Positions 525-59,453 of a DNA stretch of 64,000 nucleotides are shown piece after piece. How positions within the stretch are numbered: position 1 is the stretch's first letter; every line of letters starts with the position of its first letter. This DNA is from a bacterium (lineage in GTDB: Bacteria > Patescibacteriota > Minisyncoccia > Phycocordibacterales > GWA1-40-21). The translations under genes and the position numbers were made by a program. The notes below the pieces were generated by a model that was not told where the DNA came from, searched no databases, and worked only from the letters and a program-made list of their open reading frames with translations. The stretch lies in contig JBAXQJ010000004.1 in the NCBI GenBank assembly GCA_037131755.1, positions 1,094-65,093 of the forward strand, written 5' to 3'.

Positions 525-3440
525 CTAGAATTTCTTAATGACAATATCAATTAAACGATTAAGATACTTATTAAAATCTGAAACCTTTATTTGATCTTTA
601 TAATCCTTGAGAATTAGTTCTTGAAGTGTCCGCTTGGCTTCCTTTAAAAACTCTTCACGTTTCGATGAATCCTGCCAGCCGTCATCTAAGATGTCGGCTA
701 ATCGTGCCGCCATTTCTTTAATAAATTCTTTAACAATAGTTTCATCGGAGTCGCTAATAAATTCTTCGGACACGACAAATAACCCATACTCACCGAGCGA
801 ATAACCAAGTCCCTTGGCTTCTTCTGCCTTAGTCTTGATATCATTCATTAATTCATAGTAGCGCTTGATTCGTTCTGCTAAATCTATTTGATGTTTTTCA
901 AATTCTTGTCGAATGGCACTTAGTCTTTCACTGAACTTCTTAAAGGCTGGATGTGTATCGATATTAATCGATATCTCTCGCTTAAGCATCTTCTCAAGAT
1001 TAAGTGCCTTTTCGTCTTCGTTCATCTTGTCCAAGCGTTCAAGTGTATATAAATCATTAACCTTTAATTCTCTAAAATTTTTGGTTATGCCTTCATAGTC
1101 AATTTTTTCCTGAATAAGACTTTTAATTTTGCCGCCATATTCTGCCAAAGAAAAAGCATCGACACCGTCATCATCTTGGAACTCTTTTACAAAGGCTAAA
1201 TAAAAACTAGTAACCCACTCAAAAGTACGAATATACTCCATTAAGAATGGATCAGGCGATAGGATTTCGAATAGCATCTTAAGACGTGCGTATTTGTCCT
1301 TAAAAAATTGCTGCTTATTTTGATTATCAATAAAAATCTTGAGACAACGACGCAAATTATCAATTGATGGGTCTTCAATATTTACACCTGTAAATAATTC
1401 CATCACCTCTTCAATTACTTTAACAAATTCCTTTTTAAGACGTTCAATATCGATCATTGCGCTATCAACCACGCTCTCGTCAAAGTTGAGCGCATCATAA
1501 AGATTTTTGGTAACACCATAATAATCGATAATCTTGCCACACCCTTTATTTGGATAAACTCTATTTGTGCGAGCGATTGCCTGCAGTAGATTATGGTCTC
1601 TTAATGGTTTGTCCAAATACATAACCTGCTCAACTGGAGCATCAAATCCAGTCAATAGCATGTCACAAACTAATAAAAATTTAAGTGGGTGGCTTGCATC
1701 TTTAAACTGCTCTATAACCTTCTCTCGTTTTTGCTTATTAGTATTATATTTTTTTAGATCGTCGCTATCGCTATTAGGATCGCCGGGCGAGTAAACAACT
1801 TCTGACCATTCTGCTGGCACTAACTTATCAAGCATCTCCTTGTATTTTGCAGTTGCTTCACGATCGTAACATACAATCTGTGCTTTAAAACCATTCGGCA
1901 AAACATATAACTTGTAATGCTCAACGATATCCTGAATTACCGCTTCCATGCGTTTTTCAAGTTTAACTAAAGCTTCTTTTTTGCCATATTTTTTCATTAG
2001 CAACTCCCTCTGGCTATCATTGAGATCTGCGGTCATTTCCGCAAACTGCTTATCAAGCTTTTCTTCATCAACAAAAAACTTTGACAGCCTTGCTTCGTAG
2101 GTAACTGGTAATGTTGCGCCATCATCAATAGCTTGTTGAATTGAGTAGTAATCTAAATAACGCTCACCCTCTTCACCAAAGTTGCGGTGGGTATTTAATG
2201 TAAGTTTATCAATAGGGGTACCAGTAAAGCCAAAGAAAAAAGCGTTCTTAAACGCATTGCGCATCTTTATCGCAGAAATACCTTCATTATCACGATGAGC
2301 CTCGTCTGAAAGCACAATCACATTGCCTTCGATAGCTTCTACGTCCTGCAATTCATTAAACTTTTGAATAGTGGAAATAAATATACCCCTGTCAGCTCCC
2401 TTAATCTTTTTCTCTAAATCCTTTCGAGATTCAACTCGAATTAAGTTTTGTCCACCCCATGCTTCAAACTCATCAAAAACTTGTTGGTCTAGATCAATGC
2501 GATCAATTAATATAAATACCTTAGGATTTTTTAGCTGTTCATCAAATCGTAATTTCCAAGCAGCAAAAAACATAGTCAGGGTTTTTCCTGATCCTTGCGT
2601 ATGCCAAATTAAACCCTTCATTAATTCGCCATCCTTAACACGGCTAACAATCTTATTGGTAGCATAAAGTTGCTGATATCGAGCAATCTTCTTTGTATAA
2701 CTATCTTTCTTCTTCTCAAATACAATAAAGTTTTTAATAATATCTAAGACCTGAGTTTTGTCTAACAAATAATGTAGAGTTAAATCTAATTCTTCGTCAT
2801 ACTTCTTATTGCCACCGTGCAAATCTTCACGCCAAGTTAAAAAATATTGTTTTGGAGAATATGTTGCACCATAAACAGTTTTCAGTCCGTCCGTAGAGAT
2901 GTTAAAGCAATTAGGTAAAAATAATTTTGGCGCAACCTTTTCATACCGCTTAATCTGATCAATAGCATTTTCAAAATTAACGCTACTTGAGGCGGTGGGG
3001 CTTTTTGCTTCAATATCGCAAATCGGCAAACCATTGATAAAAATCATTACATCTGGTCGAATGTTTTCTGTCACACCCTCAAAGTAAAACTGATTGGTCA
3101 CAATAAATTGATTATTATCAATATTATCAAAATCAATAATCTTATAATCCTTAAACTGTCCAGAAGCAGGGTCTTTTATGTTTATGCCGTTTCTTAAGAC
3201 GAATAAAAATGACTCATTGGTGTCCAATTTCTTTACTTCACGAACTACGCTTTGAGCGATATCGTCGGTCGAATTATTAATTCTCTTAACTGCCTCTAAA
3301 AGATGTGGTGAAATAATATATTCATTTTCAAATATTCTCAGTTTAGAAAATTCATCAGCGCGAATATATTTATAACCGAGATTATCGGCAATAAATTTAA
3401 TTACATGGTTTTCGATCGTATGTTGTTCGTTAAATTTCAT
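525..3440 (-). CDS. hsdR: Type I restriction enzyme R subunit (HsdR)
   Basis: 971 aa; SF2 helicase motifs (HTQGSGKTLTMF Walker A, VLSDEAHRDNEG DEAH box); N-terminal nuclease-like region; adjacent to HsdM/S gene. Confidence 0.85.
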   Translation of the reverse strand: MKFNEQHTIENHVIKFIADNLGYKYIRADEFSKLRIFENEYIISPHLLEAVKRINNSTDDIAQSVVREVKKLDTNESFLFVLRNGINIKDPASGQFKDYKIIDFDNIDNNQFIVTNQFYFEGVTENIRPDVMIFINGLPICDIEAKSPTASSSVNFENAIDQIKRYEKVAPKLFLPNCFNISTDGLKTVYGATYSPKQYFLTWREDLHGGNKKYDEELDLTLHYLLDKTQVLDIIKNFIVFEKKKDSYTKKIARYQQLYATNKIVSRVKDGELMKGLIWHTQGSGKTLTMFFAAWKLRFDEQLKNPKVFILIDRIDLDQQVFDEFEAWGGQNLIRVESRKDLEKKIKGADRGIFISTIQKFNELQDVEAIEGNVIVLSDEAHRDNEGISAIKMRNAFKNAFFFGFTGTPIDKLTLNTHRNFGEEGERYLDYYSIQQAIDDGATLPVTYEARLSKFFVDEEKLDKQFAEMTADLNDSQRELLMKKYGKKEALVKLEKRMEAVIQDIVEHYKLYVLPNGFKAQIVCYDREATAKYKEMLDKLVPAEWSEVVYSPGDPNSDSDDLKKYNTNKQKREKVIEQFKDASHPLKFLLVCDMLLTGFDAPVEQVMYLDKPLRDHNLLQAIARTNRVYPNKGCGKIIDYYGVTKNLYDALNFDESVVDSAMIDIERLKKEFVKVIEEVMELFTGVNIEDPSIDNLRRCLKIFIDNQNKQQFFKDKYARLKMLFEILSPDPFLMEYIRTFEWVTSFYLAFVKEFQDDDGVDAFSLAEYGGKIKSLIQEKIDYEGITKNFRELKVNDLYTLERLDKMNEDEKALNLEKMLKREISINIDTHPAFKKFSERLSAIRQEFEKHQIDLAERIKRYYELMNDIKTKAEEAKGLGYSLGEYGLFVVSEEFISDSDETIVKEFIKEMAARLADILDDGWQDSSKREEFLKEAKRTLQELILKDYKDQIKVSDFNKYLNRLIDIVIKKF

Positions 3441-3460
3441 ATTTTTAGCAGCCTGAAAGA

Positions 3461-5725
3461 TTAGATCTTTTTGTTAAATAAACTATTTATCAATCCTCTT
3501 TTTCTCTGCATATACTTATCTAGCAATTGTTGTCTTAACTCCGCTTCACGCTTTACAGCTTCAAGTATGCTCGCTATTTCTTTTTGTTCATCTTCAGATG
3601 TGGGCAAATACAAGCTTTTTGACAAAAATTTTGTATTTGAAATATTGATAGTATTTTTTGCACCTTTTGATACTATGGTTTGTAGGTAATTATTTGTATT
3701 AATATTAGATTCAAAATACGCATCCAATATTACTCCTATAAAGTAATTTTTCGGCTCAAAAACTCCATACAAAGGAGAAACGATAGCATCCGTAGTAATT
3801 TTGCTTTGTTTAATTATACCGTAAGGGAAATCTCCTGTTGGACTCTTTGTATATATAATATCTCCAGGTCTAACAAGTTTATATTTTGAAGTGTCTTTTG
3901 CTGAATATGATCTGCCCAAATGCTCTATTTGGTTTACGACTCCCTTTTTTACAGATACAGAATGAACCTCTTCTTTTCCTGTGCTGAACAACTTATGTTC
4001 AGTTAAAACATCGCTAAGAAGAGTGTCCTTCCATTTATCCTTAGTAACTTGGCGCTTAGTTAAATCCAGGATACTAGCTTTGTATTTCTTTAGCTCCTCC
4101 TCAATAGAGTTTATTTCATTTTCTAAAGCTTCCAAGTCAACATCGATCTCTTTTTTAGAGGTGTCAACATAGCGCCTAATATCTAAATTAAAATCATTCT
4201 CAATAATTTTATTAAGAGATACTATTTCTGAATAATTTTTTATTGACTCAAATGACTCAAATGTATTAATAATTTTTTTTATATCTGATACACGCAATCT
4301 ATTTTGTTTTTTATCAATCTCAAAACCTTCCTCTGCACTTATTATCAAAATCTTATTCTTTTTTTCGGGAGATTTATTTTTGTTGAGAATAACAATTACA
4401 GCCGGAATTTTTGTTCCATAAAATAACTTTTGTGGCAATGATATAATTCCTTCTATGAGATCATTATTTAGAATAGCCTCCCTAATTTTTCCCTCAGAAC
4501 CGCCACGAAATAATACTCCATGTGGCAAAACAATTCCTGCACGACCATTTTCATTCATAGACTTAATTATATGCAAGATGAAAGCAAAGTCCGCATTTTT
4601 ATCTGGTGGCATTTCATATCCAGCTAGTCTGCCATATTTATTTGTTTTAAATACTTCCCACTCCCAATCTTTAATCGAATAGGGAGGATTTGCAACTACT
4701 ATATCAAAGCTCTGTAGCCCACCATGTTGGTTTAAAAATTGAGGATTAGCCAAGGTGTCGCCTCGACGAATATCAGCACTATCAAGACCATGAAGGAACA
4801 TATTTATACGAGCAATTGCAAAAGTACTTAAATTTACCTCCTGGCCATAGAGATATAAGGTTTTTGCTATTTTTTCACCAGATTTATTTTTTAGATAATC
4901 ATATGCCTCAAGCAAAAACCCACCCGAACCGACTGTTGGGTCGTATATGTGATCTTTCTGGTGTGGCTTTAATATGCCAATAATAACTTTTTCAACTTCT
5001 CTCGGAGTGTAAAATTCACCACCTTTTTTTCCTGCATCTGCTGCAAATTGTTTTATTAGGTATTCATAAGCATCACCAAGCAAATCTGAGCTGATATAGT
5101 TACTTCCAAAATTATATTGCGAAAAATGATTAATAAGTTTCTGCAGAGTTTCGTTTGGAAAGCGATCCTTGTTAGCAAAATCAAGATCGTCAAAAATTTT
5201 GTCGAGTTTAGGACTATTGGCATTGGTTAGCTTTTCAAAAATCTCATTTAGCTTTTGACCGATACCATCAGCTTGTTCTGTGATTACAGTCCAACGACAA
5301 TCTTTAGGAACTTGGAAACGATGATTGTAGTCAGCACGGGCTATATCTTCATTATTATATTCGTCCATTACTTTCTGATATTCTTCATCCCAAACATCGC
5401 TGATACGTTTATAAAACAACAATCCAAAGATATATTTTTTATAATCCGAGCTGTCAATTTTGCCACGCAAGATGTCAGCACTTTTCCAAAGCATTGCCTC
5501 GAGTTGGGGTAGTGTAAGTTGACTACCCATTTTATCAACGATGGCTTCAATGTCTTGTGGGCGATATTTGCGATCACCACGTTTTCCAGCTCTAAGTGGA
5601 ACCAAAATTCCATCCTTTTCCCAATTACGAAGAGTGTCTTGATGAATTGAGAAAATTTCAGCTACCTGACTAATAGAAAGAAGCTCTGGCATGCCTTTTA
5701 ATTTTTCTTGTATGTCTTTGCGCAT
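3461..5725 (-). CDS. hsdM: Type I R-M methyltransferase fused to a single HsdS target-recognition domain, with N-terminal MerR/Xis-like HTH
   Basis: 754 aa. N-terminal LSISQVAEIFSIHQDTLRNWEKDGILVPLR helix-turn-helix; HsdM N-domain (LWKSADILRG...LLFYKRISD); N6-adenine MTase motif VVANPPYS; C-terminal about 230 aa resemble an HsdS TRD plus conserved helix (LVRPGDIIYT...ISNTKFLSKSLYLPTSEDEQKEIASILEAV). Confidence 0.75.
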   Translation of the reverse strand: MRKDIQEKLKGMPELLSISQVAEIFSIHQDTLRNWEKDGILVPLRAGKRGDRKYRPQDIEAIVDKMGSQLTLPQLEAMLWKSADILRGKIDSSDYKKYIFGLLFYKRISDVWDEEYQKVMDEYNNEDIARADYNHRFQVPKDCRWTVITEQADGIGQKLNEIFEKLTNANSPKLDKIFDDLDFANKDRFPNETLQKLINHFSQYNFGSNYISSDLLGDAYEYLIKQFAADAGKKGGEFYTPREVEKVIIGILKPHQKDHIYDPTVGSGGFLLEAYDYLKNKSGEKIAKTLYLYGQEVNLSTFAIARINMFLHGLDSADIRRGDTLANPQFLNQHGGLQSFDIVVANPPYSIKDWEWEVFKTNKYGRLAGYEMPPDKNADFAFILHIIKSMNENGRAGIVLPHGVLFRGGSEGKIREAILNNDLIEGIISLPQKLFYGTKIPAVIVILNKNKSPEKKNKILIISAEEGFEIDKKQNRLRVSDIKKIINTFESFESIKNYSEIVSLNKIIENDFNLDIRRYVDTSKKEIDVDLEALENEINSIEEELKKYKASILDLTKRQVTKDKWKDTLLSDVLTEHKLFSTGKEEVHSVSVKKGVVNQIEHLGRSYSAKDTSKYKLVRPGDIIYTKSPTGDFPYGIIKQSKITTDAIVSPLYGVFEPKNYFIGVILDAYFESNINTNNYLQTIVSKGAKNTINISNTKFLSKSLYLPTSEDEQKEIASILEAVKREAELRQQLLDKYMQRKRGLINSLFNKKI

Positions 5726-5785
5726 ATTTTATGGATTAATAATCTTAATCCTAGTATACATCAAATATTTTGTAAAGTCAATCGT

Positions 5786-5805
5786 TCATAGGTTATCATA
5801 GGTTA
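5786..5805. promoter_or_regulatory. tandem direct repeat tcataggtta x2 in divergent hsdM / recombinase promoter region
   Basis: Perfect 10-bp tandem duplication in the 181-bp intergenic region between divergent genes. Confidence 0.3.
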
Positions 5806-5906
5806 AGATAATTTATCACTATATTTATTATAGTAATATTAGGCATTTTTAAGGGACTTGGGACGCTCTGGACTCTTCTGTAGATATGCGTCATCAATGT
5901 TAGTAT

Positions 5907-7226
5907 ATGAATACAATACAAATGCCCGTAGGGGTGACGAGCAAAATAATCACCCCAGTTAAGGCAAAATACTGCCTTTATGCCCGAAAATCGACCGAAA
6001 GCGAGGAAAGGCAGGTCTTATCAATAGATAGCCAAATTAAGGAGATGCTTGAGCTGGCTGAACGAGAGCAACTGGACATCGTAGAACTCAAAAGAGAGTC
6101 TCACAGCGCTAAAGAGGCTGGACAGCGACCAGTTTTTAATGAAATTATAGCCGAGATAAAGGAGGGTAAATTTAATGCCATTTTGACATGGGCTCCTGAC
6201 CGTATATCAAGAAATGCAGGCGACCTAGGCAAAATTGTGGATTTAATGGATTCTGGTGCCCTGCTTGAGATAAGGACATATGGTCAGAAATTTAGCAATA
6301 ACCCGAACGAGAAGTTTCTGCTCATGATTCTCGGATCACAAGCCAAACTTGAAAACGACAACAGAGGCATTAATGTCAGACGAGGACTAAGGACTAGGGC
6401 TGAGATGGGTTTGTGGGTAGGTCTAGCACCGCTAGGCTATCTGAACCAAAGACGGATGGACAAGAAGTGCCAAGTGGTAGTTGATCCGCTACGTGCGCCA
6501 GCCATCAAGCAGATGTTTGAGAAAATGGCTTACGAAAAGTTTAGTGGGCGAAAATTATTCAACTGGCTCAAACATGATCTAAACTTTTACACCCGAGGCA
6601 ACAAGCCGCTAACGTTGGCTGGTGTTTATAGAATAATAAATAATCCATTCTACTACGGCGTATTTGAGCGACCAGTCGGTAGTGGCAACTGGTATCAAGG
6701 AAAACATAAGCCTCTAATTAGTAAGGACTTATACGACAAAGCACAAGCTCAATTAAAACGAGATCAAATTGTTAGAGAAAATAAAGAGTTTGCATTCACT
6801 AAACTATTCACTTGCGGTTATTGTGGCTCGGGCATATCGGCAGAGGAAAAATACAAACCGCTCAAGGACGGAACACATGCAAGATACATCTACTACTCCT
6901 GTTCGAGGGCACGAGATCGCAATTGCAAGAATAAATACATAAGAGAAGAAGAATTGATTACTGAACTGCTAAAAATATTAGACAAGGTAAATATTAACGA
7001 GCTAGGAATGCGGCAAAAACTGGAAGATGAAATTGCCAGATTCAATATCTTCCAACGATCAGTGCTTGGCGCAACTGATAAAATCAAAACCAACAAAGAA
7101 ATGGATATTAGAAACTATGCTAAATATCTACTCAAAGAGGGAGCGACATCGGATAAGCGAGAGTTGCTCGGAAATTTAAGGTCGAAGATAATGTACAAGG
7201 ATAAAGTATTAACTTTGATTGAATAG
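5907..7226 (+). CDS. large serine recombinase (resolvase/integrase family)
   Basis: 439 aa; N-terminal resolvase catalytic domain (CLYARKSTESEERQVLSIDSQ, catalytic Ser); recombinase domain; Cys-rich zinc ribbon (CGYCGSG...YYSCSRARDRNC). Confidence 0.8.
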   Translation: MNTIQMPVGVTSKIITPVKAKYCLYARKSTESEERQVLSIDSQIKEMLELAEREQLDIVELKRESHSAKEAGQRPVFNEIIAEIKEGKFNAILTWAPDRISRNAGDLGKIVDLMDSGALLEIRTYGQKFSNNPNEKFLLMILGSQAKLENDNRGINVRRGLRTRAEMGLWVGLAPLGYLNQRRMDKKCQVVVDPLRAPAIKQMFEKMAYEKFSGRKLFNWLKHDLNFYTRGNKPLTLAGVYRIINNPFYYGVFERPVGSGNWYQGKHKPLISKDLYDKAQAQLKRDQIVRENKEFAFTKLFTCGYCGSGISAEEKYKPLKDGTHARYIYYSCSRARDRNCKNKYIREEELITELLKILDKVNINELGMRQKLEDEIARFNIFQRSVLGATDKIKTNKEMDIRNYAKYLLKEGATSDKRELLGNLRSKIMYKDKVLTLIE

Positions 7227-10023: not shown

Positions 10024-11287
10024 TTACGCCTAGGCTGATAAACTGCTCGGTCAATGATTTCATAAAAGCCGACGGACCGCAAATATAGATTTCTTCCCTG
10101 ATCAGATTACCGCTTTGGGTGGCAATCTCTTTGGCACTTATCCTTCCCTGCTCCTTGGAAATCCACGGCAAAACCCGAAACTTCTTGTTGGCCGACATGA
10201 CCGTCTGAAGCTCCGCCAGCAATACCAACTCTTTCTTTTCCGCCACGCAATAATACAAATCGATATTATGATTTCCCTCTTTCAGACTTCGCGCCATGCT
10301 CAGAAACGGCGTGATGCCGACCCCGCCAGCAATCCAGATTTCTTTTTTATCGCTTTGGCTATCTTCAAAAAAACTGCCGAAAGGTCCCTCGATCATCACC
10401 TTCATGCCGGTACGCATTTTGTCAAAATCGCTGGTAAAATCGCCGAGAGACTTGATCACGAGCTTGATTTTTTCCTCACTGACCGATGAAGAAATGGAAA
10501 AAGGATGCGGTTCGGAACTGATACCGGTGGCGACAAATCGGATATAGATAAACTGGCCGGGACGGAAATCCATCGCTCGTTCATTTGGTTTCAATTCAAG
10601 TTCGACGATTTTGTCGTGCAAAACCCTGACGGCTTTTATCTCATACTCGTAGTCATTATTGAAAAACTTTCGGAAAAAAGAGCGATACGCTCCAGCAAGT
10701 AAGCCCCAGACTGAAAAGAACAAAATATAGTAACGGATAAACAAGTCGCGCGAGATATCGCTAGTGATAAGGAAGGTGTGGACTAGGGCAAAAACAAAAA
10801 CGACGACCATCACCTTGTGCGATATTCGCCAAACATGATACTTAATTTTTACGAAGATGGTCAGGATCAGGAGAATAATCATGAGAGTCAACGCCCAAAT
10901 GCCGGCGTCCATCGCCAAACCATTTCCCGGCAGCAAGAACAGGGCCGCGCTTCTCACCGAAACAGAAACATATTTCACCACCAGAAACAGAGGGTGGAAT
11001 AAGAGCAGAGAAAAAGACAAAGACCCGAGGAATCGATGGGCGCCATAAAAGCGATGCAGACCGCCGAAAATCCGATCAAAGAAAGTTGAACGACTGCTTA
11101 AAATAAGATTGATGGCAAAAATAGTCATACCCAAAAGACCGGCTATTTGCCCAAGACTGGTCATCGTCGTGTTCAGATTCAGAAATCTCAGAGACAACGG
11201 TTCAAGGAAAAACCAACGGGCAATCGGGACCAGACATAGGACTGCCAAGACGGCAGTCGGAAGACTTTTTGATTTAATCAATTTCAT
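9983..11287 (-). CDS. ferric reductase / NOX-like transmembrane flavocytochrome (FRD TM domain + FAD + NAD(P) binding)
   Basis: 434 aa; about 6 TM helices with paired His (GLHRFYGAHRF; YHVWRISHKV...LVHTF); FAD-binding HPFSISSS motif; NAD-binding GGVGITPF motif. Confidence 0.7.
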   Translation of the reverse strand: MKLIKSKSLPTAVLAVLCLVPIARWFFLEPLSLRFLNLNTTMTSLGQIAGLLGMTIFAINLILSSRSTFFDRIFGGLHRFYGAHRFLGSLSFSLLLFHPLFLVVKYVSVSVRSAALFLLPGNGLAMDAGIWALTLMIILLILTIFVKIKYHVWRISHKVMVVVFVFALVHTFLITSDISRDLFIRYYILFFSVWGLLAGAYRSFFRKFFNNDYEYEIKAVRVLHDKIVELELKPNERAMDFRPGQFIYIRFVATGISSEPHPFSISSSVSEEKIKLVIKSLGDFTSDFDKMRTGMKVMIEGPFGSFFEDSQSDKKEIWIAGGVGITPFLSMARSLKEGNHNIDLYYCVAEKKELVLLAELQTVMSANKKFRVLPWISKEQGRISAKEIATQSGNLIREEIYICGPSAFMKSLTEQFISLGVNDKNIHAEEFSML

Positions 11288-11981: not shown

Positions 11982-14222
11982 ATGTTACTCCAAGATCCGA
12001 TAGATAAAAATTTCCGTTTGCAGGGCGATCAAAAGGCGGCCTTAAAGAAAATCGGCATCAAGACGATCGAGGATTTGCTCTACCATTTCCCGACTCGCTA
12101 CGGCGATACGGCGGAAATAAAAAATATCAGCACTTTAGTAGCTGGAGAAACGGCAGTGATTTATGGACGGATTACCAATCTCAAAACTGGCAAGGCTTTT
12201 ATCAAGAAGACGTCGATTTCCGACGCCTACATCGAGGACGAAAGCGGGAAAATAAAAGTGATCTGGTTCCATCAGCCCTACATTGCCAAGATAATTCACG
12301 AAGGCGCTTTTGTCCGAGTGGAAGGCAAGGTCTCCGAAAAGAAATCCTCTATACCAAGGCTAAACCTTGGTATAGACCAAGGTTTAGCCTTGGTCGGTGG
12401 GGAGAAAAAGATTTTGTCTTTTATCAACCCCAAAATCGAAACGGTGGCCAAAATACCGATCGGCGTCGGCGAGTCACTCTTTGGGGAAGATGGCGAAGAA
12501 CATTCGCTTTATCCGGTTTACCCCGAGAGCAAAGGCATCACTTCCAATTGGCTGTATCATGGCATACAGAAAATCCTCAAGGATGGAATTCTCGACCAAA
12601 TCACCGATCCGATACCCGATTTTATTCTCAAAACTTACAATCTCCCCTCGCTCGCCACGGCCCTGGTCTGGATCCATGCGCCCAAAAAACAAACCGACGC
12701 TCTGGCGGCCCGCAAGCGCTTTGCTTTTGAAGAAGTTTTTTACATCCAGCTCCAGAAAAAGAAAGATAAAAAAACTTGGGAAATCGATCCGGCGTTTAAA
12801 ATAGAGAAGGATCAAAAAGATATCGATTCCTTTACCAAACGCTTCCCATTTGAAGCCACTGGCGCACAAAAGAAAGCGATCGACCAAATTCTCTCGGATA
12901 TGAGGCGCGGTTTTGCGATGGGTCGGTTACTTGAAGGCGATGTCGGCTCTGGCAAGACGGCTGTCGCTGCGGCCGCTGTTTTTGCCACGACCACTTCCCG
13001 TCCATTTGGCCAAAATTTTGGCGCCCTGCAAACCGCCTATATGTGCCCGACCGAAATCCTGGCCAAACAGCAGTTCGAATCTTTCATAAAATATTTTACT
13101 TATCTCGGTATCAATATCGGACTCATTACTTCAAGCGGTTGCCGAAAATTCCCATCCAAAGTCAATCCAAATGGCTGGACCGATATCTCGCGCACCCAGC
13201 TTTTGAAATGGGTAGCCAATGGCGAGATCCCGATTCTGGTCGGAACGCACTCCTTGATCCAGAAAACGATTAAATTCAAGCACTTGGCTTTCGTGATCAT
13301 CGATGAACAGCATCGGTTCGGGACTAATCAAAGGCAAAAATTATTCAAGAAGAACGAGCCGGATGGCAAACCCAACCCTCACCTGCTTTCGATGACGGCG
13401 ACTCCGATTCCCCGCACTCTGGCGCTCACCGTCTATGGCGATTTGGATCTGTCCGTCCTCGACGAAATGCCGGCCGGCCGCAAACCGATCATCACGGAAA
13501 TTGTCTTACCCAAAGAGGAAACGCGCCAAGAGACTTATGAAAAAATCCGCGCCGAATTAAGATCCGGTCGACAAGTCTATATCATCTGTCCGCGCATCGA
13601 CGAACCGGATCCCAACAAAGAAATGGCCGTGCTGGCAAAATCAGTGACGGAAGAAGCCAAGCGTCTCAAAGAAAAGATCTTTCCGGAATACGAGATCGGC
13701 GTTCTCCACGGTAAGATGAAAGACGATGAAAAAGAAGAGGTGATGGCCGAATTTTCGGCTGGTAAAATTCACATCCTTTGTGCCACCTCGGTCGTGGAAG
13801 TCGGCGTGAATGTGCCGAACGCGACTGTCATCGTGATCGAGGGTGCCGAACGTTTCGGCCTGGCCCAGCTCCATCAGCTTCGCGGCCGGGTTATTCGTGG
13901 CAACCATCAGGCTTACTGCTACATTTTTGCCGATACCAAAACCGACAAGACGATACAGCGCTTGCGGGCATTTAAGAATTCCGCAAACGGTTTCGAGTTG
14001 GCGGAGTTCGATCTCAAACTCCGCGGTCCGGGCGAGCTCGGCGGCAACAAACAATGGGGCATTTCGGATATCGGCATGGAGGCGCTCAAAAATATCAAAA
14101 TGGTCGAAGCCGCCCGCGCGGAAGCTGGATATCTTTTGGAAAATGATTTTGAGTTGCAAAAATACCCCCTGCTAAAAGAAAAATTAAAATGCAGAAAGAC
14201 TGAAGAAATTCATTTTGAATAG
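11982..14222 (+). CDS. recG: ATP-dependent DNA helicase RecG
   Basis: 746 aa; wedge/OB N-domain; helicase motifs (GDVGSGKT, IIDEQHRFG DEQH box); C-terminal helicase lobe. Confidence 0.85.
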   Translation: MLLQDPIDKNFRLQGDQKAALKKIGIKTIEDLLYHFPTRYGDTAEIKNISTLVAGETAVIYGRITNLKTGKAFIKKTSISDAYIEDESGKIKVIWFHQPYIAKIIHEGAFVRVEGKVSEKKSSIPRLNLGIDQGLALVGGEKKILSFINPKIETVAKIPIGVGESLFGEDGEEHSLYPVYPESKGITSNWLYHGIQKILKDGILDQITDPIPDFILKTYNLPSLATALVWIHAPKKQTDALAARKRFAFEEVFYIQLQKKKDKKTWEIDPAFKIEKDQKDIDSFTKRFPFEATGAQKKAIDQILSDMRRGFAMGRLLEGDVGSGKTAVAAAAVFATTTSRPFGQNFGALQTAYMCPTEILAKQQFESFIKYFTYLGINIGLITSSGCRKFPSKVNPNGWTDISRTQLLKWVANGEIPILVGTHSLIQKTIKFKHLAFVIIDEQHRFGTNQRQKLFKKNEPDGKPNPHLLSMTATPIPRTLALTVYGDLDLSVLDEMPAGRKPIITEIVLPKEETRQETYEKIRAELRSGRQVYIICPRIDEPDPNKEMAVLAKSVTEEAKRLKEKIFPEYEIGVLHGKMKDDEKEEVMAEFSAGKIHILCATSVVEVGVNVPNATVIVIEGAERFGLAQLHQLRGRVIRGNHQAYCYIFADTKTDKTIQRLRAFKNSANGFELAEFDLKLRGPGELGGNKQWGISDIGMEALKNIKMVEAARAEAGYLLENDFELQKYPLLKEKLKCRKTEEIHFE
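12350..12395. repeat. palindromic repeat element (two inverted units) lying in-frame inside recG
   Basis: tataccaaggctaaaccttggtata + gaccaaggtttagccttggtc; the 27-mer ctataccaaggctaaaccttggtatag is identical to the copy at 53347-53373; translated as IPRLNLGIDQGLALVG within RecG. Confidence 0.7.
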
Positions 14223-14288: not shown

Positions 14289-14361
14289 GCGCGTGTAGCT
14301 CAGTTGGTAGAGCGGTCGTCTTATACACGACTGGTCCCAGGTTCGAATCCTGGCACGCGCA
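14289..14361 (+). tRNA. tRNA-Ile (anticodon UAU)
   Basis: Manual cloverleaf of GCGCGTGTAGCTCAGTTGGTAGAGCGGTCGTCTTATACACGACTGGTCCCAGGTTCGAATCCTGGCACGCGCA: perfect 7-bp acceptor, 5-bp anticodon stem GTCGT/ACGAC, loop CTTATAC (U33, anticodon TAT, A37), discriminator A, no encoded CCA. Confidence 0.75.
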
Positions 14362-14476
14362 CAAACTAAAGCCGGGTTTTCATCAGATGAAAACCCGGCT
14401 GAGTATTTTATATGATTGGTCGCCAAGGTCTCACCTTTCCCGTCGCCGACTCCTCCCCAAGGAGAGACCTTGTCGC

Positions 14477-25761: not shown

Positions 25762-28596
25762 CTAAATCTTAAACGGCGACACGGCCGGAGCTGGCGGGGG
25801 CGGAACGTCTTTTTTTTCATATTTTTTCACAATCTCTTTTTCTACCTCTTCCCGCTCCCGGCCAAACTTGAGATAGGACAATTCTTTGAGTTTGGAAATG
25901 ATAGTTGGATCACCTTTTGGCGGCAGCATATTTTGGATATTGAACGGCTTGACCGGCACTCCTTTGGCCAGCATTTTTAGATAACAGTTGAAATTATCGA
26001 TATTCATAATGTCTCGGGCCGTAAAGACCGGCGCAAATTGTTTTTCCAAAAATTCGGCATCTTCGGAACCGACCCGGAAAGCCGCGATGGAACCAACGTT
26101 GCCAAAGACGGAGTCTTTGATCTTTTCATCGAGTTGTTTGATATATTGATGAGCGATATTGAGTGACAGTTTGTATTTTCGCGCTTCGGACAAAATTGTT
26201 GAGATCGAATCAGTGGTAATGTTTTGGAATTCATCGATGTACAAATAAAACGGCGGGGTATCGGTGCCCAGAGAATCGACTCGCGACAGGGCCGCCATCA
26301 AAATCTTGCCGACGACGATCAAACCGATCAGGTTGGCATTGATATCTCCCAGACGGCCTTTGGACAAATTGACCAGCAGGATTTTCTTGTTATCCATGAT
26401 TTCGCGAAAATTGAAAGATGATTTTTCCTGGGCTACCACCGGTCGCATAATCTCGTTTGCCAAGAAAACATCAAACTTGCTGGTGATATACGGCACGATA
26501 TTGGCGAGCGACGCTTCGCCGCCAGCCTTTTCCGCCACCTCCCGCCAGAACTGAACCACAACTGGGTTTTTACAATGAGACAGTTTTAGCTCGCGAAACT
26601 GCTTATTGGCCAGAACCCGCGAAACATCCAAAAGAGTGTTGCCGGTTTCTGGATCTTCCAAGACCAGCATTGTCGCGTTGCGGAAATACTGCTCGAACAT
26701 CGGTCCACCCGCCACTTTCATATCAAACAATTTATTAAAAATCGACAGCATTTCGTTTACCACAAAAGTCTTTTGTTCCGGGAAACGAACATCGTACTCG
26801 AGCATATTGAGGGCCATCGGTCGTGGCGTATAGGCCGGATCGAAATAAATCACATCTTCGTAACGCTCCTTGGGAATGATCGATAAGATATCCTGAATAT
26901 CCGAACCGTGCGGATCGATCATACAGACACCGTCACCGTTTTTAATATCCTGGGCGATCATATTCTTGAGCAGAGTCGTCTTACCAGTACCAGTCTGACC
27001 GATGGCATAGAAATGTCGGAGGCGATCCTCTTTGGCCATATAGATTTTGGTCTCAACGTTTCGGTTTGTGTTTGTTCCCAAGAGAATTCCCTCCGTTGGT
27101 AGGCCAAGCGGCGCCGGTGCCGTCCCGCTCTTGGAGATTTTCACGCCCGGTGAAGCACGCATCTCGCCCGATGGTAAATGCAACATCGTTGTGATTTCCC
27201 GGATATTCAAAGGCATTTTCTGACTATTTTCGAACACTCGAAAGGAAAACTCCCGGAGGACTTTTTTGAGCTCCCGGCCTTTCATTCGGGCAAAGGATAC
27301 TCGATTACTGCCGGTATTTTCAAACTGATTAAAAGCTGATTCAAGGTCAATCAGGATTCTTTCGGCTTCGGACTCGGTTGGGGCGGAAGCAACTAATCGG
27401 ATATTGGTTTCGACGGTTGGTGACTGGATCTTGGCATTCAAATTTTCCAAGATCGCCTTGTCCGGCAAATTCCTTGGGTCTTCGCCTTTTTTGTCTTTTT
27501 CCTTATCCTTGTCTTTCTTGTTTTTTTCCGCTGACTTAAAAAGGGCTTTGCCGAAATCCTTCACTACCGACTTGAGCATGCCGGCAAAAGTCAGACGGTC
27601 CATCTTGATCGCGTCCTTCAGTTTCATCCCCTTATCAATATCTTGCAAAGCTCGCTTGTAGAAACGGGTGTAATGCTCCCCGACCGGCTTGAACACCAGC
27701 TGAATGGCGGCACCGGCGCCGTCTTTGCTGATTTTTGAGAAAGCGTTCAAGATTATATTTAGCGGATCATAATCAAAATGCTCATAATATTTGATCGGAT
27801 AAAAATGATTGGCGAGCTGTTTACCACAAGATACGACCGACTTACCGGTTTCATTAAAAATATTATAATCGTCTTTCTTCTCGAAAATCTTGGCGTTGGG
27901 GAAAATGGCCAGGATCTGTTTTTCAAACAAACCGACCTTGCTGTTAGGTACGGCGACATAGAAAACCGTTTCCTCACTGCCATTACTGTTAGCCAGTTCC
28001 ACCGTAAAATACTGCGGACCGTCCGTCTCATCAGAAACAGCAATCATGCCGGCATAAAACTGCTCCATTTTGGAAATTAATTCTTTCAAGTTACGCTGCT
28101 TGTCTTTTTCTTCTGTCGGTTCCGGCAAAGAAACTTCAAACAAGGTCATCTTGAGCGACCTGAAGAAAGGCGATTTTTCCAATCGGCCGGCAATCGGCAA
28201 GCCCGCCTTGATATATTGAACCAAGAAGCGGTGGAAATCGTCATCCAAATGCGAATCGTTCATTTTTTCCACGATGGACAAGGCATTCATCAGGCCTTTG
28301 GATTGCAAAACGGTCACCAGCTCTTCCATTTTGGTATCATGCTCTTCCGGCATTAAATCCAGGACGATTGCGTCAATTTCTTTTGGTTGCAACTGATACT
28401 CCGGTTCCAAGACTTTCTCTGGTTTTTCGGCTTTGTAGTCGATGATCTTTTCGGTAATCACCGCTTCACGAACCGGCTCTAGACCTTTTTCCGCAATCGT
28501 CTTTTCGTGCTTGGCCACCTGGGCGCGCAAAAAATTCAATTCCTCCTGGGGAGAACTGAATTTCTGTTCCATTTTTTCAAAACTACCTTCGGTCAT
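25762..28596 (-). CDS. VirB4/TraC/VirD4-superfamily P-loop ATPase (FtsK/HerA-like) with large N-terminal domain of unknown function
   Basis: 944 aa; Walker A AIGQTGTGKTTL; Walker B LYIDEF; downstream R-finger/HQ...QL region; no N-terminal TM helices. Confidence 0.6.
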   Translation of the reverse strand: MTEGSFEKMEQKFSSPQEELNFLRAQVAKHEKTIAEKGLEPVREAVITEKIIDYKAEKPEKVLEPEYQLQPKEIDAIVLDLMPEEHDTKMEELVTVLQSKGLMNALSIVEKMNDSHLDDDFHRFLVQYIKAGLPIAGRLEKSPFFRSLKMTLFEVSLPEPTEEKDKQRNLKELISKMEQFYAGMIAVSDETDGPQYFTVELANSNGSEETVFYVAVPNSKVGLFEKQILAIFPNAKIFEKKDDYNIFNETGKSVVSCGKQLANHFYPIKYYEHFDYDPLNIILNAFSKISKDGAGAAIQLVFKPVGEHYTRFYKRALQDIDKGMKLKDAIKMDRLTFAGMLKSVVKDFGKALFKSAEKNKKDKDKEKDKKGEDPRNLPDKAILENLNAKIQSPTVETNIRLVASAPTESEAERILIDLESAFNQFENTGSNRVSFARMKGRELKKVLREFSFRVFENSQKMPLNIREITTMLHLPSGEMRASPGVKISKSGTAPAPLGLPTEGILLGTNTNRNVETKIYMAKEDRLRHFYAIGQTGTGKTTLLKNMIAQDIKNGDGVCMIDPHGSDIQDILSIIPKERYEDVIYFDPAYTPRPMALNMLEYDVRFPEQKTFVVNEMLSIFNKLFDMKVAGGPMFEQYFRNATMLVLEDPETGNTLLDVSRVLANKQFRELKLSHCKNPVVVQFWREVAEKAGGEASLANIVPYITSKFDVFLANEIMRPVVAQEKSSFNFREIMDNKKILLVNLSKGRLGDINANLIGLIVVGKILMAALSRVDSLGTDTPPFYLYIDEFQNITTDSISTILSEARKYKLSLNIAHQYIKQLDEKIKDSVFGNVGSIAAFRVGSEDAEFLEKQFAPVFTARDIMNIDNFNCYLKMLAKGVPVKPFNIQNMLPPKGDPTIISKLKELSYLKFGREREEVEKEIVKKYEKKDVPPPPAPAVSPFKI

Positions 28597-29611: not shown

Positions 29612-29633
29612 AAATTTTCTAACAATAATGTCA

Positions 29634-29647
29634 CCCCCCCCCCCCCC
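29634..29647. repeat. homopolymeric C14 (G14 on minus strand) tract
   Basis: 14 consecutive C, 22 nt upstream of the RT start codon and between an ATG (29628) and the Avd-like reading frame. Confidence 0.9.
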
Positions 29648-29781
29648 GCAACACCCTGCCCGTCATTAACAGCCTGAAAGACGCTTATTTTCTCTGGATT
29701 TCCTATTTTGTCCATCTGCCTAATATACACAAATATTCGCTTGGTGAAAATGTTAGCAAATTATTTATTGAGACTATTGAA

Positions 29782-30006
29782 ATGACGGCTTATGCCGAGT
29801 TTTTGACCAGAACGGAAAAATTACCTTATATAAAAGTAGCAGTACGAAAATTAGATACACTAAAAGTTATGATTCAAATAGTCTGGGAAATAAAGGCTTT
29901 GGACGAGAAAAAATATATTGCTTTGTCAGAAAAACTGAACGAGACCGGCAAGATGCTTGGTGGCTGGCATAATAAATTAGCCAAAGAAAACTCCCCGACT
30001 AAATAA
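29782..30006 (+). CDS. avd: Avd-like accessory protein (four-helix-bundle family), N-terminally truncated in this frame; frame extends upstream to 29629 without a start codon
   Basis: C-terminus EKKYIALSEKLNETGKMLGGW resembles the Avd/TIGR02436 family. In-frame upstream segment ENAYFLWISYFVHLPNIHKYSLGENVSKLFIETIE also resembles the family N-terminus but lacks an ATG. The ATG at 29628 is in the -1 frame, across the C14 tract. Confidence 0.5.
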   Translation: MTAYAEFLTRTEKLPYIKVAVRKLDTLKVMIQIVWEIKALDEKKYIALSEKLNETGKMLGGWHNKLAKENSPTK

Positions 30007-30028
30007 TCGGGGAGAAATAAAGAGAGTA

Positions 30029-31550: not shown

Positions 31551-31575
31551 CATACCAAGGTTTAGCCTTGGTATG
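31551..31575. repeat. palindromic repeat element copy (loop in opposite orientation)
   Basis: cataccaaggtttagccttggtatg, 36 nt downstream of map. Confidence 0.65.
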
Positions 31576-50076: not shown

Positions 50077-50107
50077 TGCTCGAAAACCTCGAGCATTTAT
50101 TTTTTTG
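50077..50107 (+). terminator. rho-independent terminator
   Basis: tgctcga-aaacc-tcgagca followed by TTTATTTTTTT. Confidence 0.65.
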
Positions 50108-51623
50108 CCAAATTTTCCCGAAGAATGACCAGGCCATAGAAGACATAGATGAAGATCAACAAAGATAAGCTAAAATTAGTTACTTGTAAAATTGCAAAAG
50201 GTAAATGGGCGAAAAAACCGATGACTTTTAGCATATAAATGAGCAACCAGTAGCTGATAAAAGCGACTGGCAAAGCCAAGATCGGCGAGATAAAAGCTAA
50301 AGATCCGGTCAAAAAACCGGCAAGCATCACGGTTGGGATTAGAGGCAAAATTAATAAGTTGGCCGGCAAAGAAACCAGGGACAGGACGCCCATCTTGTAA
50401 AGCAAGAAAGGCAAAACAAAGATTTGCGTGGCAATCGTCGCCATAATCAGCTCACGAAGCTGAAACTTGGCCGTGATAAAGCCCAACCTCTTTTCAACGA
50501 TTGGCGAAACAAAAATCAAAGCCAGGGTGGCCATAAATGACAACTGAAACGAAGTGTCAAAAACCAGAATTTTCGGGTTTTGAATAAGCATAAAAACGCC
50601 AGCCACGAGAAGAGCGCGAGTGATGTCATAAGTCCGGGCCGTCGCCTTTGACAAAATGACGAGCAGAGCCATCACCGAAGCCCGGATTACCGTCGCCGAA
50701 CCGCCGGTCATCAAAGCAAAAAGCAGTATTCCGATGGCGCCAAAAGACATCGAAATTGCCCGCGGGAGAAAAGCAAAAAACGCCATAATTCCTTCGGCGA
50801 CGATTGTGATGTTGTAGCCGGACAAGGCGACAATATGGATCACGCCGGCGTTCCGAAAATCATTTTGCAAATCTTTGGGAAAGGAACTTTTTGCCCCCAA
50901 GAGCAGGCCGCCCAAAAAAGTCGACTCCGGCTCGCTAATCAAATTATTAATCTTCGTCATAAAGGCGTTTTTGATTTTAAACATCAATCCCTTGATATAA
51001 CTCCCCTGCCCGCCTTCAAGGTATTTTATTTGCGCAAAACTGACCTGGTAATAAATATCGTCTTTCGCCAAGTAGCTTTCGTAGTCAAAAACCTTGTCAC
51101 TGGTAGTAGAAAAATTTTCCACCATCTGTAATTCACCGCTTACCGCCAACCGGTCGCCGTATTGGTATTCCGGAATCAACCCCGTTCTGACCAAAATCTT
51201 CCCGGAAATTTCTTTACCATCTCCGTCCGCCAGTATTTTTTCAGCGGAAATGACTAGTTGAGTGCCATTTTCTTTGACATTCGGCTCGTCAGAAACCACT
51301 CCAACGATTTGTATCTTTTGATCGGCATATTCCGTAAAATTATTATCTGAACGGCCCAGATCTTTTATCTCATAACGCAAGATACCCAAAGCAAGAAACA
51401 TGATAAATAGGCCGATCAGAACCAAGGACGGTTTTCGGGAGCCGCTCCCGAAAACCGTCCTTGGTGATTCGCCGACTGATATGAATTTAACGTAGGCAAG
51501 AACAGCTGCGGACAAAAGGCATAATAAAAGAAAAAATGAAAAGCCAAATTTCGTAAACGAGCTAGCAAAAATACCGAGCGCAAACCCGGCAATGGCCGTG
51601 TAAAAAAATGATTGATTTCCCAT
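50097..51623 (-). CDS. comEC: ComEC/Rec2-like competence membrane channel (N-terminal plus competence domains, no MBL domain)
   Basis: 508 aa; about 10 TM helices; architecture and hydropathy typical of the ComEC core. The MBL domain is encoded separately at 48008-48913. Confidence 0.6.
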   Translation of the reverse strand: MGNQSFFYTAIAGFALGIFASSFTKFGFSFFLLLCLLSAAVLAYVKFISVGESPRTVFGSGSRKPSLVLIGLFIMFLALGILRYEIKDLGRSDNNFTEYADQKIQIVGVVSDEPNVKENGTQLVISAEKILADGDGKEISGKILVRTGLIPEYQYGDRLAVSGELQMVENFSTTSDKVFDYESYLAKDDIYYQVSFAQIKYLEGGQGSYIKGLMFKIKNAFMTKINNLISEPESTFLGGLLLGAKSSFPKDLQNDFRNAGVIHIVALSGYNITIVAEGIMAFFAFLPRAISMSFGAIGILLFALMTGGSATVIRASVMALLVILSKATARTYDITRALLVAGVFMLIQNPKILVFDTSFQLSFMATLALIFVSPIVEKRLGFITAKFQLRELIMATIATQIFVLPFLLYKMGVLSLVSLPANLLILPLIPTVMLAGFLTGSLAFISPILALPVAFISYWLLIYMLKVIGFFAHLPFAILQVTNFSLSLLIFIYVFYGLVILRENLAKK

Positions 51624-53346: not shown

Positions 53347-53373
53347 CTATACCAAGGCTAAACCTTGGTATAG
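53347..53373. repeat. palindromic repeat element copy
   Basis: ctataccaaggctaaaccttggtatag, identical to 12348-12374. Confidence 0.7.
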
Positions 53374-59269: not shown

Positions 59270-59453
59270 TTATCTTATTATACAAAAAAACCCAGAACTA
59301 AGCGAGGGCAAGAGTAGCTTCTTAGCTGGTAGCTTGTAGGAAGATAATTTTAATACATTATGAGTCTGTTCATTTTGCGTGTTAACGGAGCCGGCTTAGA
59401 AAATTAAAGAGGTTTTTAATAAAACAAAGCATTAGATACACCGTTCTCAATTA

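What the first reader, a model, noticed from the sequence alone, without database searches (positions are those of the whole stretch)
12350..12395. Palindromic repeat element inserted in-frame within recG (RPE-like), with dispersed intergenic copies
A 27-nt hairpin-forming element (ctataccaaggctaaaccttggtatag) plus a second inverted unit lies inside the RecG wedge-domain coding region and is translated as …IPRLNLGIDQGLALVG… without breaking the frame. An identical 27-mer occurs in an intergenic spacer at 53347-53373. A flipped-loop variant (ataccaaggtttagccttggtat) lies just downstream of map at 31551-31575. In-frame colonisation of protein-coding genes by palindromic repeats is known for Rickettsia RPEs but is rare elsewhere.
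Basis: seen in the sequence. Interest (0 to 1): 0.7.

Follow-up and report, generated by a model that had tools for sequence, protein, structure and literature searches.

The report
Palindromic repeat translated inside recG
A small hairpin-forming repeat, normally found just after genes in this tiny-genome (CPR) bacterium, has landed in-frame inside the DNA-repair gene recG and adds a floppy 21-residue loop to the protein. This is a known kind of "selfish DNA in a gene", seen here in a new bacterial group and at a site that related species have filled repeatedly with other hairpins.

Summary
The 27-mer CTATACCAAGGCTAAACCTTGGTATAG is exact at 12349-12375 (inside recG) and at 53347-53373. An inverted 19-nt unit follows at 12376-12394, so the pair forms a perfect 19-bp hairpin. 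A flipped copy lies 12 nt after the map stop codon. Chance expectation is 0.

An alignment of 120 RecG orthologues shows the segment is a lineage-specific 21-residue insertion (residues 122-142) in a turn between two beta-strands of the wedge domain. AlphaFold2 models exactly those residues as low-confidence coil.

The same 46-nt dimer, and a second dimer, sit after stop codons on a compositionally similar contig. A related palindrome (ACCAAGGTTWAACCTTGGT) is enriched in CPR genomes, mostly 3' of genes.

This is a REP/RPE-like palindromic repeat dimer, inserted in-frame and tolerated in a surface loop. It lacks the GTAG or CGTC tag, and no RAYT was found among the window ORFs I checked.

Two results go beyond the finding. 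ComEC in the same window carries another in-frame 45-nt perfect palindrome. And 16 of 120 RecG orthologues carry inserts at the same wedge turn, scattered across the tree; those checked at DNA level are mostly unrelated palindromes.

Verdict: a new member of a known kind, of moderate interest.

The parts
11982..14222 (+). recG gene (746 aa), intact, with wedge, DEAD/ResIII, Helicase_C and RecG_dom3_C domains
   Evidence: ORF. Pfam domains on the identical product. 1GM5 RecG matches at E = 3e-119.
12345..12407 (+). Lineage-specific 63-nt, 21-codon insertion (residues 122-142, SSIPRLNLGIDQGLALVGGEKK) in the turn between two wedge-domain beta-strands
   Evidence: Alignment of 120 orthologues. Empty-site orthologue L077. 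AF2 gives pLDDT below 50 and coil for exactly residues 122-142, between strands 110-120 and 144-148.
12349..12375 (+). Repeat unit 1: CTAT-ACCAAGG-CTAAA-CCTTGGT-ATAG (11-bp stem, 5-nt loop)
   Evidence: Exact duplicate of 53347-53373. Palindrome scan.
12376..12394 (-). Repeat unit 2, inverted (loop TTTAG on the + strand). With unit 1 it forms a perfect 19-bp-stem, 4-nt-loop hairpin at 12353-12394 (REP-dimer/REPIN-like).
   Evidence: The same dimer is 97.8% identical at L063:6105-6150.
53347..53373 (+). Intergenic single copy, 42 nt after the recJ stop (53415, minus-strand gene), followed by the tail TGGCTTAAA
   Evidence: (I2).
31551..31575 (-). Intergenic single copy in the opposite orientation, 12 nt after the map stop (31587). 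The tail TGGCCTTAAA lies on the minus strand.
   Evidence: (I2, I13).
51421..51465 (-). Second in-frame coding palindrome (22+1+22, perfect) with the same outer 7-mers ACCAAGG...CCTTGGT. It is translated as PRTVFGSGSRKPSLV inside ComEC.
   Evidence: The ComEC orthologue alignment shows about 12 extra residues here.
50097..51623 (-). comEC gene (508 aa) carrying the second palindrome in a loop between N-terminal hydrophobic helices
   Evidence: (PF13567, PF03772).

Best explanation
The segment is a head-to-head dimer of a roughly 27-nt REP-like palindromic repeat. The unit is (CT)AT-ACCAAGG-CTAAA-CCTTGGT-AT(AG). It belongs to a low-copy dispersed family in this Paceibacterota (CPR) genome. Ordinary members sit 6-46 nt after stop codons, where the transcript would carry a 3' hairpin.

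One dimer entered recG at the DNA level, at the turn between two beta-strands of the wedge OB fold. Together with a few flanking codons it adds 63 nt, keeps the frame and has no stop. It is therefore translated as a 21-residue, probably disordered surface loop and persists because it is harmless (selfish DNA in a gene, as with Rickettsia RPEs and intragenic REP dimers).

Shown: repetition beyond chance, the dimer architecture, the lineage-specific insertion, frame preservation, hairpin potential, the 3'-of-gene habit of the other copies, and the predicted disordered loop. Inferred: that the insert is translated and neutral, and that the family spreads by transposition or copy-paste of a single-stranded hairpin. 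The enzyme is unknown.
For: - Exact 27-mer at two loci, plus two further units; 0 expected by chance.
- The same 46-nt dimer (97.8% identical) and a second 58-nt dimer with 28-bp perfect arms lie in intergenic positions on L063. That contig comes from a sibling sample with matching composition: GC 42.5% against 43.6%, tetranucleotide r = 0.94.
- All three dimers have the same unit order.
- 104 of 120 orthologues lack the segment. The empty site in L077 reads AGA AAA GGC ATT TTG.
- The AF2 model gives residues 122-142 pLDDT below 50 and coil, between two strands.
- The related palindrome ACCAAGGTTWAACCTTGGT is strongly enriched in CPR genomes: about 38 of 58 hit loci, with up to about 13 copies in one Parcubacteria MAG.
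- Positions of the copies are 26 between tandem genes, 8 between convergent genes, 2 between divergent genes and 6 in ORFs. This is the REP pattern (PMC3733652).
- Intragenic REP dimers encoding 20-30 residues in repair genes are documented (PMC3733652).
- The other length-variable sites in RecG fall near loops that AF2 models with low confidence, as expected if only tolerated insertions survive.
Against: - No GTAG or CGTC tag flanks the units.
- No RAYT or IS200-type gene was found among the 30 window ORFs scanned against Pfam or in the precomputed Pfam table for window about 1982-24222. The remaining ORFs, mostly in about 34.5-46 kb, were not scanned.
- There is no clear target-site duplication. 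The flanking EKK...EKK codons match at only 6 of 9 nt.
- Only 5 loci were seen in about 77 kb, and the whole genome could not be counted.
- No near-identical empty-site allele exists in the databases; the next orthologue is 76% identical. The insertion event is therefore inferred from the alignment, not observed.
- Kinship between the window's CTAAA-loop variant and the CPR-wide TTWAA variant is plausible but unproven.
Confidence: 0.75

Rival explanations
1. The coding palindromes arise or are perfected in place. Replication template switching (quasi-palindrome correction or fold-back copying) would make them at a mutation-prone site, rather than a mobile repeat inserting there.
For: - The arms are 100% complementary over 19-23 bp in recG, ComEC and the L071 RecG.
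- The inserts in other RecG orthologues have no second copy in their 3-22 kb loci.
- L071 has a second perfect 20-bp-arm palindrome (10572-10614). It overlays and remodels native RecG sequence with only 3 extra residues, so it looks made in situ.
- The empty wedge site is itself a small A4-N4-T4 quasi-palindrome.
Against: - The recG unit is identical to a copy 41 kb away, and the whole dimer recurs on another contig. Its sequence therefore came from elsewhere.
- The inserted arms do not resemble the neighbouring recG sequence.
Confidence: 0.1
2. The insertion is kept for a function. It might extend the wedge-domain hairpin that engages branched DNA, or act as an mRNA hairpin that tunes recG translation or decay.
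For: - The same turn carries inserts in 16 of 120 orthologues, scattered across the tree.
- Related inserts in P0003 and P0112 differ by paired changes that keep the stem, GAGCC/GGCTC against GAAGC/GCTTC.
- The stems are very stable.
Against: - The inserts are unrelated in peptide sequence and vary from 6 to 28 residues.
- The insert is predicted to be disordered.
- 87% of orthologues do without it.
- The palindromy is a DNA-level signature, and the same unit also occurs in non-coding DNA in both orientations relative to transcription.
Confidence: 0.08
3. The hairpin is not translated. It would be removed from the RNA or bypassed by the ribosome, as with the byp elements of yeast mitochondria or phage T4 gene 60.
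For: A 19-bp perfect stem inside an ORF is a strong obstacle to the ribosome.
Against: - Every insert examined (8 RecG loci and ComEC) is a multiple of 3 and free of stops. Bypass or splicing would not require that, although finding them by protein search biases this.
- No intron or ribozyme family was detected.
Confidence: 0.04
4. The match is due to chance similarity or an assembly artefact.
For: Palindromes can cause misassemblies.
Against: - 0 of 100 shuffles gave a match.
- Identical DNA is found in ENA, JGI, Logan and NCBI assemblies.
- Both flanks encode collinear, conserved RecG sequence.
Confidence: 0.02

Closest known systems
Intragenic REP dimers (REP/REPIN family; Di Nocera et al. 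2013, PMC3733652)
   Same: Both are 20-40-nt stem-loop units that often occur as inverted dimers able to fold into a larger hairpin. Both lie mostly downstream of ORFs between tandem or convergent genes. Occasional in-frame intragenic copies, frequently dimers encoding 20-30 residues and frequently in replication or repair genes, are seen in both.
   Different: There is no GTAG (or CGTC) tetranucleotide tag and no RAYT was found. The host is a CPR bacterium, the copy number is low, and the stem sequence is unrelated.
Rickettsia palindromic elements (RPE; Ogata et al. 2000 and 2002, as cited in PMC10969869)
   Same: Both are palindromic selfish repeats inserted in-frame into functional genes of a reduced-genome, host-dependent bacterium, at positions compatible with the protein fold.
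   Different: RPEs are about 100-150 bp and encode a conserved 30-50-residue peptide, whereas this unit is 27 nt (46 nt as a dimer). The sequences are unrelated. Here many different palindromes use the same protein site in different lineages.
Bacterial MITEs (Correia/NEMIS, ERIC, RUP)
   Same: Both are small non-autonomous repeats with inverted-repeat symmetry, sometimes intragenic with open frames.
   Different: MITEs are 70-300 bp with 15-30-bp terminal inverted repeats and target-site duplications. This element is much shorter and shows no clear duplication.
Coding palindromes of Nematomorpha mitochondria (PMC6649704)
   Same: Both are perfect inverted repeats inside translated genes, gained and lost between lineages. 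Template switching was proposed to maintain them.
   Different: Those are not dispersed repeat families, and both of their arms encode conserved native residues. The recG element is an added, dispersed repeat. (The L071 10572-10614 palindrome resembles the nematomorph case more closely.)

Membership tests
REP (repetitive extragenic palindrome), GTAG class | Short (20-40 nt) imperfect palindrome repeated in dispersed copies | tested here: met
   A 27-nt unit with an 11-bp stem and 5-nt loop. There are 4 units in the window and 4 on L063.
REP (repetitive extragenic palindrome), GTAG class | GTAG (GT[AG]G) tetranucleotide at one end of the unit | tested here: not met
   Read from the flank sequences printed: the units are flanked by CTAT/ATAG or CAT/ATG, and no unit has GTAG directly 5' of the stem. 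A GTGGC tail follows three copies on the 3' side.
REP (repetitive extragenic palindrome), GTAG class | Frequent inverted dimers that fold into a larger hairpin (REPIN/BIME-like) | tested here: met
   Three dimers with the same unit order: recG 12353-12394, L063 6103-6150 and L063 12410-12467. There is also a dimer in Saccharibacteria locus L048.
REP (repetitive extragenic palindrome), GTAG class | Located mainly downstream of ORFs, between tandem or convergent genes | tested here: met
   26 tandem, 8 convergent, 2 divergent and 6 in ORFs. Window and L063 copies lie 0-46 nt after stop codons.
REP (repetitive extragenic palindrome), GTAG class | Associated RAYT (IS200/IS605-like Y1 transposase) in the genome | tested here: inconclusive
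   No Y1_Tnp hit among 30 window ORFs scanned or in the precomputed L001 gene table. Not every window ORF was scanned, and only 64 kb of the genome is available.
CGTC-tagged REPs / short Rickettsia RPE-4 and RPE-6 | CGTC tetranucleotide at one end; 8-9-bp stem; 4-5-nt loop | tested here: not met
   Stem and loop sizes fit (7-11 bp, 5 nt), but no CGTC or GACG flanks any unit in the sequences printed.
Rickettsia palindromic elements (RPE-1 type) | Element of about 100-150 bp encoding a conserved peptide, inserted in-frame in genes | tested here: not met
   The in-frame insertion is met, but size (27 or 46 nt) and sequence are not.
MITE | 70-300 bp, terminal inverted repeats and a target-site duplication | tested here: not met
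   The element is too short. The flanks show no consistent direct repeat, and the recG EKK/EKK codons match at 6 of 9 nt only.
RecG helicase (host gene) | Wedge OB domain, two RecA-like helicase domains and a C-terminal domain, full length | tested here: met
   Pfam RecG_wedge, DEAD/ResIII, Helicase_C and RecG_dom3_C. 1GM5 matches at E = 3e-119. Helicase motifs are invariant in alignment A1.
DNA uptake sequence (DUS/USS-like) | Short motif over-represented hundreds-fold across the genome, including in coding DNA | tested here: not met
   CCAAGG occurs 65 times against 58.5 expected, and ACCAAGG 19 times against 16.2.

The most novel reading that the evidence does not exclude
Protein-coding palindromes may be a systematic feature of Paceibacteria/CPR genomes rather than a one-off. 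A few surface turns would then be colonised again and again, in independent lineages, by unrelated near-perfect hairpins of roughly 36-46 nt. The candidate turns are the RecG wedge turn, at least two other RecG loops and a ComEC loop.

The nesting pattern hints at a hairpin-apex-directed insertion or copy-paste process with site preference that has not been described:
- The conserved core sits at the tip of copy-specific stems in other CPR genomes.
- A foreign palindrome sits inside an ACCAAGG/CCTTGGT stem in ComEC.
- The empty RecG site is itself an A4-N4-T4 mini-palindrome.
Probability: 0.4. Interest if true: 0.7.

Novelty: new member of a known kind. Interest (0 to 1): 0.5.

Why it matters
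In-frame "selfish DNA in genes" has long been treated as nearly a Rickettsia speciality. Finding it in a CPR bacterium suggests it is a general outcome in reduced, host-dependent genomes that carry hairpin repeats. The supporting signs are a second case 39 kb away and repeated, independent hairpin insertions at the same RecG turn in about 13% of close orthologues.

There are three practical consequences:
- It explains much of the odd length variation of CPR proteins.
- It offers natural markers of permissive loops in RecG and ComEC.
- It warns annotators that such segments are repeats, not domain features.

If a site-directed mechanism lies behind the hot spot, that would be a new mode of repeat spread.

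Tried and rejected
- **Rfam scan of the window:** only a tmRNA and two tRNAs, so no known RNA family covers the element.
- **DNA-uptake-sequence idea:** rejected, because CCAAGG and ACCAAGG are not over-represented.
- **Viral contigs:** one hit for the core and none for the ComEC palindrome, so there is no evidence for a phage vector.
- **phmmer of the 36-residue insert region against 1.84 billion representatives:** no hit at E <= 0.001. The query was too short to be informative.
- **Target-site duplication:** nothing consistent at any copy.
- **RAYT or transposase search:** none among the 30 window ORFs scanned or in the precomputed L001 table. Only a large serine recombinase and a DGR reverse transcriptase turned up.
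- **DNA of the closest insert-free orthologue (P0002):** could not be fetched, so L077 served as the empty site.
- **Second copies of the other orthologues' inserts:** none in their 3-22 kb loci. This is too little sequence to decide.
- **Complementary flanks around the RecG inserts (apex-insertion idea):** not seen for L071, L072 or L075 on reading the printed sequences.
- **Literature search:** no paper in the library describes palindromic in-frame insertions in CPR/Patescibacteria.
Full report
**Observation**

The window reads tcCTATACCAAGGCTAAACCTTGGTATAGACCAAGGTTTAGCCTTGGTCggtgg at 12347-12399.
- The 27-mer CTATACCAAGGCTAAACCTTGGTATAG is exact at 12349-12375 and 53347-53373.
- The core ACCAAGG-N5-CCTTGGT occurs four times: 12353, 12376, 31554 and 53351. 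Two of these have the loop flipped.
- None of 100 dinucleotide-preserving shuffles produced a match.
- In recG the two units are adjacent and inverted, so 12353-12394 is a perfect 19-bp stem with a 4-nt loop. Folded as DNA it gives -22.7 kcal/mol, z = -9.7.
- The segment lies in a 746-aa ORF (11982-14222) that reads through it as ...EKKSSIPRLNLGIDQGLALVGGEKKILSF....
- Identical DNA is present in ENA, JGI and Logan contigs and in an NCBI MAG, so no single assembler created it.

**Host and gene**

The protein is a full-length RecG. It has wedge, DEAD/ResIII, Helicase_C and RecG_dom3_C domains and matches T. maritima RecG 1GM5 at E = 3e-119. Its close relatives are annotated as Paceibacterota, Parcubacteria or Minisyncoccia MAGs, that is, Candidate Phyla Radiation.

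**It is an insertion**

- In an alignment of the 120 best orthologues (69-76% identity), 104 have exactly 9 residues between GK[VI]S and NPKIE (modal ERKGVLGMM). The window protein has 30.
- The extra 21 residues are 122-142, corresponding to nt 12345-12407.
- An insert-free orthologue (L077) reads AGA AAA GGC ATT TTG at the empty site.
- An AlphaFold2 model built on 60 orthologues (mean pLDDT 72.6) gives pLDDT below 50 and no secondary structure for exactly residues 122-142. These lie between strand 110-120 and strand 144-148 of the wedge OB fold.
- The fork-contacting WF..Y motif (Phe204 and Tyr208 in 1GM5, from my own knowledge of the 2001 structure paper) aligns about 20 residues upstream. 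Whether the turn faces DNA was not determined.

**It belongs to a dispersed family**

- The two intergenic copies in the window lie 12 nt after the stop of map (Peptidase_M24) and 42 nt after the stop of recJ. They are in opposite orientations and share a tail, GTGGC(C)TTAAA.
- A metagenome scan for the exact 19-mer found contig L063 (Ga0194054_10000069), from a sibling sample. Its composition is close to the window: GC 42.5% against 43.6%, tetranucleotide r = 0.94.
- L063 holds the same 46-nt dimer (97.8% identical) a few nt after the stop of a 1348-aa gene. It also holds a second dimer with perfect 28-bp arms abutting another stop codon.
- That makes five loci and eight units in about 77 kb. 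All three dimers have the same unit order.
- A scan of 185,579 species genomes for ACCAAGGYTWARCCTTGGT gave 58 loci. I expected about 17 by chance (my own estimate).
- About 38 of these loci are from CPR MAGs, including about 13 copies in Parcubacteria GW2011_GWA2_40_143 and several in Saccharibacteria, Yonathbacteria and Minisyncoccia. There the motif is usually the near-perfect palindrome ACCAAGGTTWAACCTTGGT, and its stem is extended by copy-specific complementary flanks.
- Their positions are 26 between tandem genes, 8 between convergent genes, 2 between divergent genes and 6 inside ORFs, mostly close to a 3' gene end.

**Classification**

Small stem-loop units, inverted dimers, a 3'-of-gene habit and rare in-frame intragenic copies are the features of REP-type repeats. 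Di Nocera et al. 2013 report that intragenic REPs occur in several species. More than half are dimers encoding 20-30 residues, and many lie in replication and repair genes (PMC3733652). The Rickettsia RPEs are the classic in-frame case (PMC10969869).

The present family is not a formal member of either class:
- Neither a GTAG nor a CGTC tag is present.
- The unit is far shorter than an RPE.
- No RAYT gene turned up among the 30 window ORFs scanned or in the precomputed table for the recG neighbourhood.
- No consistent target-site duplication was seen, which also argues against a classical MITE.

**Mechanism**

The best-supported reading is that a REP-like dimer was copied into recG at the DNA level. 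It survives because the added 63 nt keep the frame, contain no stop (two of the three forward frames of the dimer are open) and fall in a solvent-exposed turn.

The insert is therefore most likely translated as a disordered loop and close to neutral. Translation, neutrality and the mode of spread are inferred, not shown. The perfect complementarity of the arms suggests the event is recent or that the arms are homogenised.

**Beyond the finding**

1. A second in-frame palindrome lies in the window at 51421-51465.
   - It is a perfect 22+1+22 palindrome inside ComEC, translated as PRTVFGSGSRKPSLV.
   - It shares the outer 7-mers ACCAAGG...CCTTGGT.
   - ComEC orthologues lack about 12 residues at this point, in a loop between hydrophobic helices.
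2. The RecG wedge turn is a hot spot.
   - 16 of 120 orthologues carry inserts of 6-28 residues within one or two codons of the same position.
   - These fall into about 11 different sequence types. On a neighbour-joining tree they are scattered among insert-free sisters, which implies roughly ten or more independent gains.
   - In the seven other insert-bearing orthologues with DNA, most inserts are unrelated palindromes: L071 46 nt with perfect 23-bp arms, L072 45 nt, L075 46 nt and L073 36 nt.
   - L076 has 12-bp arms around an inner hairpin, by my reading of the sequence. L070 has only short palindromes. In L074 the scan found none, but by eye its insert resembles the L073 hairpin.
   - The related inserts of P0003 and P0112, which sit in different clades, differ by paired changes that preserve the stem.
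3. Two further RecG sites, after consensus positions of about 320 and 436, show the same behaviour. Their small inserts have hairpin potential at the nucleotide level. The site near 436 coincides with a loop the model marks as low confidence (residues 458-461).
4. L071 carries another perfect 20-bp-arm palindrome that remodels native RecG sequence with only three added residues. This looks more like in-situ palindrome formation.

**Rivals**

- **Template switching in place.** It is the main alternative for the hot spot in general. For this element it is contradicted by the identical copies elsewhere.
- **Selected protein or mRNA function.** It cannot be excluded, but it is disfavoured by the sequence diversity of the inserts, their predicted disorder, and their absence from 87% of orthologues.
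- **Removal or ribosomal bypass.** This is unlikely given frame and stop preservation in all cases, although the protein-based search biases that observation.
- **Chance or artefact.** Both are excluded.

**Verdict**

The element is a new, untagged REP-like family in a CPR bacterium, caught as an in-frame dimer in the RecG wedge domain. That makes it a new member of a known kind.

The recurrent colonisation of the same protein turns by unrelated hairpins across Paceibacteria is the most interesting lead. I found no description of it in the searchable literature.

Noticed in passing
window 28640-31300: A complete diversity-generating retroelement. The reverse transcriptase ORF is 28640-29611(-), the template repeat is 30029-30150, and the variable repeat is 30652-30773 at the C-terminal end of target ORF 30632-31300(-). 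All 13 TR/VR mismatches fall at TR adenines. A C14 run lies at 29634-29647, just upstream of the RT start.
   Followed up: partly
window 51421-51465: A 45-nt perfect palindrome translated in-frame inside ComEC. It shares the ACCAAGG/CCTTGGT ends with the recG element, and its interior is a different palindrome, as if nested in the loop of a unit.
   Followed up: yes
RecG orthologues P0003-P0112; loci L070-L076: The RecG wedge turn carries inserts in 16 of 120 orthologues, scattered across the tree. At DNA level most are unrelated palindromes. Further hot spots lie after consensus positions of about 320 and 436, with hairpin-like small inserts.
   Followed up: partly
L071 10572-10614: A perfect 20-bp-arm palindrome inside RecG that overlays native conserved sequence (ILQNLQGSTLKVLED against ILKS-GILEKLID) with only 3 extra residues. 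It looks like in-situ palindrome formation or patch replacement.
   Followed up: partly
window 31513-31531: A hairpin, ACAAAGG-ACCGA-CCTTTGT, with the same 7-bp-stem, 5-nt-loop design as the repeat unit. It lies 20 nt from the 31551 copy. A similar neighbour (CCAAAGGTTAAACCTTTGG) sits next to a copy in Saccharibacteria locus L056.
   Followed up: no
CPR loci L010, L019, L023, L024, L026, L034, L040, L051, L053, L054 (LBYH01): In Parcubacteria GW2011_GWA2_40_143 the core GCACCAAGGTTWAACCTTGGTGC sits at the tip of longer perfect palindromes. The outer arms differ from copy to copy but stay complementary (for example AAAACGC...GCGTTTT), and are often flanked by A and T runs like bidirectional terminators.
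   Followed up: partly
window 32454-32516, 44877-44939, 59362-59424, 59458-59520: A four-copy family of 63-nt direct repeats (67-81% identical to the reference copy, extending to 152 nt at 86% for one pair) in intergenic regions. It was not characterised.
   Followed up: no
window 525-7226 and 25762-28596: Mobile-element-like gene content. Type I restriction-modification genes hsdR and hsdM lie next to a large serine recombinase (5907-7226). There is also a 944-aa TraG/VirD4-like coupling-protein ORF.
   Followed up: no
P0090, P0112 (L074 6001-8649): Some RecG orthologues carry a whole PD-(D/E)XK (PF13366) domain inserted in the helicase region, after consensus position of about 435.
   Followed up: no
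window 14289-14400: tRNA-Ile with anticodon TAT (14289-14362), followed 8 nt later by a perfect 15-bp-stem palindrome (14370-14400).
   Followed up: no
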